Below are positions 37,301-40,300 of a stretch of 64,000 bases of DNA, piece after piece; the stretch's first letter is position 1, and each line of letters opens with the position of its first letter. Made by a program: the position numbers. Source of the DNA: Escherichia coli O127:H6 str. E2348/69 (GTDB lineage Bacteria > Pseudomonadota > Gammaproteobacteria > Enterobacterales > Enterobacteriaceae); the NCBI RefSeq assembly GCF_000026545.1, contig NC_011601.1, one strand, 5' to 3'.

Positions 37301-40300
37301 CTTTGGTGCGCCGAGCTATAACCGTTTGCAGGCAGCAGCGACTTCCGCACAAAAAGCGGCGTTGTCTAAGCTGTCTCCGGAAATGGTGAGCGCCAGCACC
37401 CTGGCAGGTGACCCGATCACCGCGCGTCTGACGGTGGCACCGGGTAATGGCGCTTCTATCGGCGGTCTGAAAGTGATGACTGACAACGGCTGGTTCGCCG
37501 CGCGTCCGTCAGGCACGGAAGACGCATATAAGATCTACTGCGAAAGCTTCCTTGGTGAAGAACATCGCAAGCAGATTGAGAAAGAAGCGGTTGAGATTGT
37601 TAGCGAAGTTCTGAAAAACGCGTAAACATATCAAATAAGAAAAAGGGCGGTCGGAAGATCGCCCTTTTTTGCTTTGCTTAATTAACCGTGTTTATTTTTC
37701 AGTTCAAAGCGTGGTGAGACCAGACCATACAGTGTCCAACCGAGGAAGGTCACGATGGAACCGTATAGCATGGCTTCTTCCCCGGATGAGTACAGCGCAT
37801 AAAAGCTGTACATCGCGCCAACAAAAGCAACAAAGTTTGCAACTTTCGCTTTTGAGGGGGGCACATTAGCGACCTTCTGAATAATGACTAATGCCGCCAT
37901 TGACAGAATATACGGAATGATATTGGTCACCACGGCCAGGTTAACCAGCACGTTGAACTGACTGTTTAGCGACGGGCTAATCGTCATCAGCGCCAACCCG
38001 CTCTGGATAATCACAATGGTCAACATTCCCTGCACCGGTGCATCCACTTTGGTTACACGGGAGAAAATTTTAGGGAAGTAGCCTTCATCAGATGAAGATT
38101 TAAACACCTGGGCAATGGTGAACTGCCAGCCAAGCAGCGAACCGCAGCAGGACATCACCATCAGCGCCATAATGACTTTACCCACTTCCGGCGTGAACAT
38201 CTGCGCGAAGGCCAGACCAAATGGTGCCGTTGAATTTGCCAGCTCCATATTTGGCACAATCCCGGCAATCACGTTGGTGGAGACGATATAAATCACCGCC
38301 GCACCTAACGTACCGCCGAGTACCGCGATTGGCACATTACGTTCCGGGTTTTCCACTACATCAGTATTCGCACACGCAGACTCCAGACCAAGAAAAGCCC
38401 ACAGCGTCATAGCGATGGAAGAACCTACCGCACTGAAGAAGGGTGCATGATGCGGATTCCAGGAATCAACGTAAAGCGTCGGGCTAAACCAGAACCAGCC
38501 GATAATGCACAGGCCTACCACCGGAATAATGACCCCCCACACGGTAATGCTACTGATTTGCCCGGTAATGCGCGCACCACCAAAGTTAGCCACGGTACAA
38601 ATCCACAGCACCCCGATGGTCGCAAGACCAATCTGCACTGGCGACAAACTCGCGCCGAGCAGTTCGGTGCCGTAACCAACCGCCGAAATAGCAATCGCGA
38701 CGTTAGCAATCAGCAGCGAGACGCCGTAGGTATAGTTCGCCATAAAGTTACCGGATTTACCGAAAGCATACTCGGCATAACCGCCCATACCTCCTGATTT
38801 ACGGCTGAACATACCGCATTTTGCGAATGCCCATGCCAGTGCCATTGAGCCTACGGCTGTCACCAACCAGGAGATTATTGAGATTGTCCCAACTTCGGCA
38901 AGCTTTGTCGGCAGCATGATGATGCCGGAGCCCATCATGTTGACCATCGTCAGTATGGTTAACTGAACGACGCCCATCTTGTTCGATTTAGCCTGACTCA
39001 TAATTTTTCCCCTTTCAGCAGGGTGCTTTGCGCATCACGAGGCTTGATGACATAGCACCAAACTTGCTTACGACCATCATGTTCTTCGATATAGACACCC
39101 TGCAGCTCCGGTGCAAAACCTGGCAGCAGGTTGATGCCTTCTTCCAGAGCGCTGAAGTAACGCAGAACAGCACCACCCCAGATTTCACCAGGAACAACAC
39201 ACAGCACACCCGGAGGATAAGGAAGCGCACCTTCGGCAGCGATACGGCCTTCTGCATCCGGCAGACGAACCAGCTCCACTTCACCGCGTAAGTAGGCGTA
39301 GTTGGCTTCTTGCGGATTCATGCTGACGCGTGGGAAGTGTTCCTTACGGAACATCTCTTTTTGCAGTTGTTTCACGTTGTGGCGGGCATACAAATCATGC
39401 ATTTCCTGGCACAACTGACGAAGGGTATAACCGGCGTAGCGCTCTTCATGCTGTTTGTAGATGGAAGGCAGTACTTCTGATAATGGCGCGTCGGACTCAA
39501 GCAGTTTTTCGAAGCGTACCAGCAGAGCAGCAAGTTGCTGAAGTTTGGCCATATCTTCTGCCGGAGTCAGCAGAAAGAGGATGGAGTTAAGATCGCATTT
39601 TTCCGGCACTACGCCATTTTCGCGCAGGAAGTTAGTAAGAATCGTCGCGGGTACACCGAACGCTTCATATTCGCCGTTACGTGCATCAATACCTGGGGTT
39701 GTCAGCAACAGTTTGCACGGATCGACAAAGTATTGATTCTCTGCATAGCCTTCAAAAGAATGCCAGTGCTCACCTGGTACAAACTGGAAGAAGCGCAGAT
39801 CAACCGCAATTTGCGCTGTTTCATACGACTGCCAGGGTTTACCATCCACCAGTTCAGGTACGAATGGACGAATATGCTGACAGTTATCGAGGATCAGTTT
39901 GCGGGCATTAATGCCATTTACCACACAATCCATCCACATATTACGACCGCTGACACCTTCATGCATTTTGGCGTTGATATCCAGTGCGGCAAACAGCGGA
40001 TAGAACGGGCTGGTGGAGGCATGCATCATAAAGGCGTTGTTCATGCGTTTGTGCGATACATAACGCTGTTGCCCTTTGATATGGCTGTCTTTTTTATGGA
40101 TTTGTGAAGTCTGGGAAAAACCAGCCTGCTGTTTATGCACAGATTGCGTAACCAGAATACCCGGATCGTTCTCATTAAGATCCAGCAACAGTGGTGAACA
40201 GTCCGCCATCATCGGGATAAACTGCTCATAGCCGACCCATGCGGAGTCAAAGAGGATGTAGTCACACAGATGACCAATTTTATCCACCACCTGACGGGCG

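What the first reader, a model, noticed from the sequence alone, without database searches (positions are those of the whole stretch)
37626..37681. pgm and potE are directly convergent, sharing one bidirectional terminator
Only 56 bp separate the pgm stop from the potE stop. My recollection is that K-12 has additional small genes (ybfP and others) in this interval; their absence here would be another strain-specific difference.
Basis: partly seen in the sequence, partly recalled or inferred. Interest (0 to 1): 0.25.

Follow-up and report, generated by a model that had tools for sequence, protein, structure and literature searches.

The report
Shared terminator between pgm and potE
In this E. 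coli strain the pgm and potE genes end 56 bases apart around one hairpin that probably stops transcription from both sides. This is the commonest E. coli layout, and lab strain K-12 is the one carrying an extra 1.7-kb insert, so the finding is correct but ordinary.

Summary
Confirmed and ordinary. The pgm stop codon ends at 37625 and the potE stop codon starts at 37682, leaving 56 bp. That spacer holds one hairpin, A5 / GGGCGGTC-GGAA-GATCGCCC / T6, at 37640-37670.

The window is E. coli O127:H6 E2348/69 (100% identity over 25 kb). K-12 has 1,747 bp at the same place: a BIME (a cluster of REP repeats), ybfP, a DUF2625 pseudogene (ybfG) and a 145-bp copy of the kdpE 3' end (ybfI). This segment lies between two similar hairpins, T1 next to pgm and T2 next to potE.

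The compact form is not strain-specific. About 3,160 of 5,426 complete E. coli genomes (58%) have it, and 1,851 (34%) have the K-12 insert. E. albertii and 53 other enterobacterial species loci have pgm and potE adjacent and convergent. None of the 80 species loci fetched encodes ybfP or DUF2625.

Termination in both directions is inferred from sequence only. A G.U pair makes the stem stronger in the pgm sense (-14.4 kcal/mol) than in the potE sense (-9.4).

One strain, HH97, equals the K-12 haplotype minus exactly 1,692 bp that lie between 15-bp perfect repeats in the two hairpins. The hairpins therefore mark the indel breakpoints. Nothing here is new in kind.

The parts
35985..37625 (+). pgm (phosphoglucomutase, 546 aa), stop TAA at 37623-37625
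37626..37681 (.). 56-bp pgm-potE spacer, the finding itself
37640..37644 (.). A5 tract, which becomes the U-tract of the potE-sense transcript
   Evidence: read directly
37645..37664 (.). Hairpin T1: GGGCGGTC / GGAA / GATCGCCC. The 8-bp stem has one G.U pair in the pgm sense, which is an A.C mismatch in the potE sense. Stem energy is -14.4 versus -9.4 kcal/mol.
37665..37670 (.). T6 tract, the U-tract of the pgm-sense transcript
37682..39001 (-). potE (putrescine-ornithine antiporter, 439 aa). Its protein is identical to that of K-12 (WP_000075845.1).
38998..41196 (-). speF (inducible ornithine decarboxylase, 732 aa), in one operon with potE
41454..41558 (-). speFL leader peptide gene upstream of speF. 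Coordinates were converted from the identical E2348/69 record.
41792..42469 (-). kdpE. Its last 145 bp is the source type of the K-12 'ybfI' fragment.

Best explanation
The 56-bp spacer is a real, compact junction between two convergent transcription units, seqA-pgm on the + strand and speFL-speF-potE on the - strand. It contains a single A5-stem-loop-T6 hairpin. Transcribed in either direction, this gives a GC-rich hairpin followed by a U-run. It therefore most probably acts as an intrinsic terminator for both units, stopping each from reading antisense into the other. It should be stronger for pgm than for potE, because one stem position is G.U in one sense and A.C in the other. The arrangement is the common E. 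coli allele and the family-wide gene order. K-12 and about a third of E. coli differ because they carry a 1.7-kb accessory segment (BIME, ybfP, DUF2625 gene ybfG, kdpE 3' fragment ybfI) bracketed by two similar hairpins, T1 for pgm and T2 for potE. Shown here: coordinates, hairpin, population frequency, synteny in other species and indel breakpoints. Inferred: termination itself, and its two-way nature. The confidence given applies to the whole statement. The structural and comparative parts alone are near certain, and two-way termination alone is about 0.7.
For: Coordinates and gene identities. Hairpin and folding statistics. The window is E2348/69. The K-12 interval is 1,747 bp with ybfP, a DUF2625 pseudogene and a wHTH fragment, and homology to the window breaks inside the hairpin on both sides. 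Frequency: 3,160 of 5,426 genomes carry the contiguous junction (3,196 with a 1.5-kb query), and 1,851 carry at least 80% of the K-12 insert. Other species: 54 species loci have potE and pgm adjacent and convergent, none of 80 loci has a YbfP or DUF2625 match, and E. albertii has a 57-bp spacer with one hairpin. Nine species loci, in five genera (Atlantibacter, Cedecea, Huaxiibacter, Citrobacter, Escherichia), have spacers of 60 bp or less, each with a single hairpin and flanking A and T runs. The window encodes no ybfP or DUF2625 anywhere.
Against: No RNA 3'-end data exist for this junction, and in K-12, where most mapping was done, the two genes are not neighbours. The simple terminator scan called the site only on the + strand. 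The - strand fold is less exceptional (z = -2.76), and the potE-sense stem has an internal A.C mismatch (-9.4 kcal/mol) with a U-run of only five before a C. potE transcripts could therefore read through partly or be ended by Rho or by polymerase collision.
Confidence: 0.75

Rival explanations
1. History, version A: within E. coli the compact allele is a secondary deletion. An ancestor had two hairpins (pgm-T1 ... T2-potE) with a BIME and the ybfP/ybfG segment between them. Recombination or slippage between the two hairpins removed everything in between. This restored the older single-hairpin layout but left potE with the hairpin that had been tuned for pgm.
For: All seven compact E. coli alleles read (the window plus six others) carry the T1-type hairpin with a GGAA or GCAA loop. 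E. albertii's single hairpin is T2-type and nearly identical to K-12's T2. No complete E. coli genome matched a constructed T2-type compact junction better than 96.5%. T1 has a G.U pair that only suits the pgm sense, whereas the single hairpins of other genera are perfect Watson-Crick palindromes. Strain HH97 equals the K-12 haplotype minus exactly 1,692 bp bounded by a 15-bp perfect repeat, ATCGCCCTTTTTTAC. Its last 465 bp of pgm are identical to K-12, and there are 3 mismatches in 1,558 bp on the potE side. The insert exists in versions about 100%, 95% and 92% identical to K-12's in different E. coli lineages, so it is old in the species. Strain E69 has the intermediate form T1-BIME-T2 in 222 bp.
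Against: None of 80 species loci outside E. coli has ybfP or DUF2625, so the insert is derived at some level. The T1/T2 difference, five or six bases in 20 depending on the alleles compared, could be ordinary divergence of one orthologous hairpin, since the flanks also diverge fast. The HH97 pair can equally be read as an insertion. No tree-based reconstruction was possible with these tools.
Confidence: 0.5
2. History, version B: the compact allele is the retained ancestral state, orthologous to the E. albertii spacer. The BIME and the ybfP/ybfG/kdpE' segment were inserted next to the hairpin in some E. coli lineages, bringing or duplicating a second hairpin.
For: The compact convergent layout is the rule in Enterobacteriaceae, and the insert genes are absent from all 80 species loci. 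The compact form is the majority allele in E. coli. The kdpE 3' fragment and partial REP at the right end of the K-12 insert look like scars of an illegitimate join with another haplotype.
Against: This version needs the incoming DNA to end in a hairpin very like the resident one, with the crossover inside 15 bp of identity. It does not explain why K-12's T2, sitting next to a typical E. coli potE, matches E. albertii's hairpin better than T1 does.
Confidence: 0.4
3. The hairpin terminates only pgm. speF-potE transcripts are ended mainly by Rho, or by head-on collision with polymerases coming from pgm, not by this hairpin acting as an intrinsic terminator.
For: The potE-sense stem has an A.C mismatch (-9.4 versus -14.4 kcal/mol). 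The scan found no - strand terminator. Collision-driven two-way termination at convergent E. coli genes has been reported (10.1101/2022.10.23.513370, read).
Against: The potE-sense RNA still forms a 5+2-bp GC-rich stem, extended by A-U pairs and followed by UUUUUCUUAUUU. There is no other candidate structure in the 17 nt between the potE stop and the stem.
Confidence: 0.2
4. The short spacer is an assembly error or a private deletion of this isolate.
For: None found.
Against: Three independent E2348/69 or O127:H6 assemblies are identical over 25 kb. About 3,160 complete genomes share the contiguous junction, 1,047 of them at 99% identity or more to the window allele.
Confidence: 0.01

Closest known systems
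K-12 pgm-potE interval (ybfP, ybfG, ybfI; locus L001 6727-8473)
   Same: It has the same flanking genes. PotE is the identical protein. The pgm-side hairpin T1 is nearly identical to the window's hairpin (loop GCAA versus GGAA), and the potE-proximal flank is homologous.
   Different: K-12 has 1,747 bp instead of 56 bp, made of T1, a BIME, ybfP, a DUF2625 pseudogene, a 145-bp kdpE 3' fragment, a partial REP and a second hairpin T2. In K-12 pgm and potE are not neighbours and each has its own hairpin.
E. albertii pgm-potE spacer (L007, 57 bp)
   Same: The genes are directly convergent, the spacer is almost the same length, and there is one A-tract / 8-bp stem / T-tract hairpin with both flanks homologous.
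   Different: Its hairpin is a perfect palindrome, GGGCGATC-ATTC-GATCGCCC, equally stable on both strands at -14.2 kcal/mol. It matches K-12's T2 rather than the window's T1.
Two-way terminators at convergent E. coli gene pairs (Ju et al. 2019, as described in 10.1101/2022.10.23.513370)
   Same: The element lies between convergent genes, and a stem-loop in the nascent RNA is part of the mechanism.
   Different: That class was described as not resembling intrinsic terminators and as driven by polymerase collisions. The element here has the canonical hairpin-plus-U-run form on both strands, and no transcript-end data exist for it.

Membership tests
Two-way intrinsic (Rho-independent) terminator | GC-rich stem-loop in the 3' intergenic region | tested here: met
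   The 8-bp stem GGGCGGTC/GATCGCCC with a GGAA loop lies at 37645-37664. Fold z-scores are -4.09 on the + strand and -2.76 on the - strand.
Two-way intrinsic (Rho-independent) terminator | U-run directly 3' of the stem on both transcripts, that is an A-tract on one side and a T-tract on the other | tested here: met
   A5 lies at 37640-37644 and T6 at 37665-37670. The potE-sense tail is UUUUUCUUAUUU.
Two-way intrinsic (Rho-independent) terminator | Position between the stop codons of convergent genes, with no second terminator candidate | tested here: met
   The stem lies 19 nt from the pgm stop and 17 nt from the potE stop, and it is the only terminator-like site in 37300-38000.
Two-way intrinsic (Rho-independent) terminator | Stem equally well paired on both strands (Watson-Crick pairs only) | tested here: inconclusive
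   One G.U pair in the pgm sense becomes an A.C mismatch in the potE sense, giving -14.4 versus -9.4 kcal/mol. Single hairpins in other genera are perfect palindromes.
Two-way intrinsic (Rho-independent) terminator | Mapped RNA 3' ends and measured termination in both directions | not testable with these tools
   No transcript data are available here. In K-12 the two genes are not adjacent.
K-12-type ybfP/ybfG/ybfI accessory segment | Presence of the ybfP lipoprotein gene, the DUF2625 gene and the kdpE 3' fragment between pgm and potE | tested here: not met
   tblastn and blastn of these against the whole window give no hit, except the kdpE' fragment matching the real kdpE at 41791-41935.
REP/BIME element | REP palindromes (GCCGGATGCGGCG-type) in the spacer | tested here: not met
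   The 56-bp spacer has none. The K-12 and E69 intervals do have them.
Known small RNA or cis-regulatory RNA (Rfam 15) | Match at the family's gathering score | tested here: not met
   The best match is MicX at 23.2 bits against a gathering score of 75. All hits cover only the terminator hairpin.

The most novel reading that the evidence does not exclude
The most novel reading the evidence allows is that the two similar terminator hairpins act as portable homology for gain and loss of the accessory segment. On this reading today's compact E. coli allele is a reversion made by hairpin-to-hairpin deletion. The speF-potE operon would then end at a hairpin that evolved for the opposite strand, so potE termination would be measurably leakier in compact-allele strains than in K-12 or E. 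albertii.
Probability: 0.4. Interest if true: 0.2.

Novelty: already known. Interest (0 to 1): 0.1.

Why it matters
It matters little. The result corrects the framing: K-12 is the unusual one at this locus, and the compact pgm/potE junction is both the majority E. coli allele and the gene order seen across the family. For anyone studying speF-potE or pgm expression in non-K-12 strains, it flags that the two units face each other across a single, slightly asymmetric hairpin. Antisense read-through could therefore differ from K-12. It is also a small, clean example of an accessory segment whose indel breakpoints lie inside terminator hairpins.

Tried and rejected
- **Literature, first search:** the search for ybfP/potE returned noise, because 'pote' matched 'potential'.
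- **Literature, second search:** a whole-word search for ybfG/ybfP/ybfI found no paper.
- **Rfam:** the scan of 37300-38000 gave only sub-threshold hits to the terminator ends of sRNA models.
- **Promoter scan:** it found nothing in the spacer.
- **T2-type compact junction:** I built a hypothetical compact junction carrying the T2 hairpin and searched all complete E. coli genomes. No exact carrier turned up. The best hit, at 96.5%, was a T1-type allele in strain HH97.
- **Private deletion or assembly artefact:** considered and rejected.
- **Hidden small ORF or RNA gene in the spacer:** considered and rejected.
- **K-12 insert as a transposon with target duplications:** considered and rejected. 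The flanking repeats are long, imperfect and nested (29-bp hairpins, 39-bp repeats at 82% identity), and no transposase is present.
- **Origin of ybfP/DUF2625:** not pursued with the large protein searches, because it does not bear on the window's feature.
- **Two calls failed on a one-base length limit** and were repeated.

Full report
**Observation**

The pgm reading frame ends with TAA at 37623-37625. The potE frame (439 aa, minus strand) occupies 37682-39001 including its stop, so the spacer is 37626-37681, 56 bp, exactly as reported. tblastn and Pfam confirm the two genes. RefSeq annotation of an identical record lists pgm and potE as direct neighbours. The window is E. coli O127:H6 strain E2348/69: 100% identity over 25 kb to three assemblies of that strain, with the next-best record at about 98%.

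**What is in the spacer**

Read directly, the spacer is ACATATCAAATAAG-AAAAA-GGGCGGTC-GGAA-GATCGCCC-TTTTTT-GCTTTGCTTAA.
- The A5 tract is at 37640-37644, the stem-loop at 37645-37664 and the T6 tract at 37665-37670.
- It is the only terminator-like site in 37300-38000, and no promoter-like site lies in the spacer.
- As RNA, the 71-nt stretch 37620-37690 that contains the spacer folds at -23.7 kcal/mol on the + strand (z = -4.09, 0 of 200 shuffles as good) and -18.7 on the - strand (z = -2.76, 2 of 200).
- The stem alone is -14.4 kcal/mol in the pgm sense and -9.4 in the potE sense. One G.U pair becomes an A.C mismatch on the other strand.
- Rfam has nothing at gathering score.

**K-12 comparison**

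In a K-12 record the pgm stop and potE stop are 1,747 bp apart. The interval reads:
- hairpin T1, which has the same arms as the window's hairpin and loop GCAA;
- a BIME made of two REPs;
- ybfP, a 164-aa lipoprotein gene with no Pfam match;
- a DUF2625 gene with an internal stop (ybfG);
- a 145-bp fragment about 90% identical to the 3' end of kdpE, annotated as a winged-helix pseudogene (ybfI);
- a partial REP;
- a second hairpin T2, GGGCGATCATTCAATCGCCC, followed by T6;
- then the potE stop.

Homology with the window runs from pgm through T1 and its T-tract. It resumes at the left arm of T2, so the single hairpin of the window aligns with both K-12 hairpins. The window has no ybfP or DUF2625 anywhere.

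**How common each form is**

| Form | Complete E. coli genomes (of 5,426) | Source |
|---|---|---|
| Contiguous junction, 160-bp query | 3,160 (58%), of which 1,047 at 99% identity or more to the window allele | |
| Contiguous junction, 1.5-kb query | 3,196 | |
| At least 80% of the K-12 insert | 1,851 (34%) | |
| Other forms | the remainder | |

The other forms include an insert version about 95% identical to K-12's, with an intact DUF2625 gene (L004). There is also an IS200C-disrupted version (L005). Some genomes have lost speFL-speF-potE altogether and read pgm-T1-BIME-ybfP-BIME-kdpE (L003, L006). The compact form is thus the majority allele, not a peculiarity of this strain.

**Other species**

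A scan of one genome per species with PotE returned 80 loci.
- In 54 of them both gene ends are present, and potE and pgm are adjacent and convergent, flanked by speF/kdpE and by seqA.
- None of the 80 has a YbfP or DUF2625 match.
- Spacer lengths have a median of about 110 bp. Nine are 60 bp or less, and each of these holds a single hairpin with flanking A and T runs. They belong to Atlantibacter, Cedecea, Huaxiibacter, a Citrobacter and E. albertii.
- E. albertii has 57 bp with the perfect palindrome GGGCGATC-ATTC-GATCGCCC, which is T2-like.

The gene adjacency is therefore ancestral at family level, and the ybfP/ybfG segment is an E. coli accessory.

**History within E. coli (inference)**

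- All seven compact E. coli alleles I read carry T1. No complete genome matches a constructed T2-type compact junction better than 96.5%.
- Strain E69 has an intermediate form, T1-BIME-T2 in 222 bp.
- The K-12 insert is nested inside a second pair of imperfect repeats of 39 bp at 82% identity.
- Strain HH97 equals the K-12 haplotype with exactly 1,692 bp missing between two copies of ATCGCCCTTTTTTAC, the right arm plus T-tract of T1 and of T2. Its last 465 bp of pgm are identical to K-12, and the potE side has 3 mismatches in 1,558 bp. The indel breakpoints therefore sit in the hairpins.
- Together with the pgm-biased G.U pair, this leans towards the compact E. coli allele being a secondary deletion between T1 and T2. 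Retention of an ancestral single hairpin followed by insertion is not excluded. I put the two at roughly 0.5 and 0.4.

**Mechanism**

Shown: one hairpin with U-runs on both transcripts, placed 19 nt from the pgm stop and 17 nt from the potE stop.

Inferred from established knowledge of intrinsic termination: it ends seqA-pgm transcripts efficiently and speFL-speF-potE transcripts somewhat less so, limiting antisense read-through in both directions. Rho or polymerase collision may contribute on the potE side. Collision-driven two-way termination at convergent E. coli genes is described in 10.1101/2022.10.23.513370.

**Comparison with known and verdict**

This is a textbook-type two-way intrinsic terminator at a convergent gene pair, in a published genome, next to a well-annotated K-12 accessory segment. 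Four sequence-level features were tested. Three are met and one, stem symmetry, is inconclusive. The functional feature cannot be tested here. Nothing is new in kind. The finding is correct, and its framing needs one correction: K-12 is the variant with the insert. Interest is 0.1.

**Dead ends**

Two literature searches on the ybf genes gave nothing usable.

Noticed in passing
window 19456-28435: A roughly 9-kb gene block lies between nagE and glnS: a DeoR regulator, D-threonate-4-phosphate dehydrogenase, dtnK, an iron alcohol dehydrogenase, a DHDPS-family protein, TerC, a sialidase-family protein, NanQ/YiaL and an SLC13 permease. K-12 lacks it, and there nagE and glnS are 202 bp apart. This was seen only by comparing annotation tables.
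   Followed up: partly
window 50077-50176: ybfA and ybgA are about 100 bp apart here. K-12 has the rhsC element, ybfB, ybfC and ISAs1 transposase remnants (about 9.6 kb) between them.
   Followed up: partly
window 58989-59384: Only a truncated type 1 fimbrial pseudogene lies between gltA and abrB. K-12 has fimbrial genes here: ybgO, then ybgP at the edge of the stretch examined.
   Followed up: partly
L001 8249-8392 (K-12): The K-12 pseudogene annotated as a winged-helix fragment (ybfI) is a 145-bp copy of the 3' end of kdpE. It is 88.7-92.3% identical to E. coli kdpE genes and 85.5% to E. albertii. Homology stops at the kdpE stop codon, and the DUF2625 gene follows directly. This suggests the segment once sat immediately downstream of kdpE.
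   Followed up: partly
L003 9727-10540; L006 3947-4760: Some E. coli genomes lack speFL-speF-potE entirely and read pgm-T1-BIME-ybfP-BIME-kdpE.
   Followed up: partly
L009 7321-7542 (E. coli E69): This is an intermediate spacer of 222 bp with both hairpins and a BIME, but without ybfP/ybfG. Its speF and potE are unusually divergent (92% and 95% protein identity), while pgm, seqA and kdpE are 98-100%.
   Followed up: partly
L004 4685-5384; L005 4428-5127: The last 700 bp of potE fall into deep allele classes within E. coli. Two insert-bearing strains are 92-94% identical to the others, against 98-99% among K-12 and the compact alleles. This is more divergent than the neighbouring pgm end and hints at imported alleles.
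   Followed up: no
L095 1558-1612 (E. coli HH97): This compact allele equals the K-12 haplotype minus exactly 1,692 bp bounded by the 15-bp repeat ATCGCCCTTTTTTAC in hairpins T1 and T2.
   Followed up: yes
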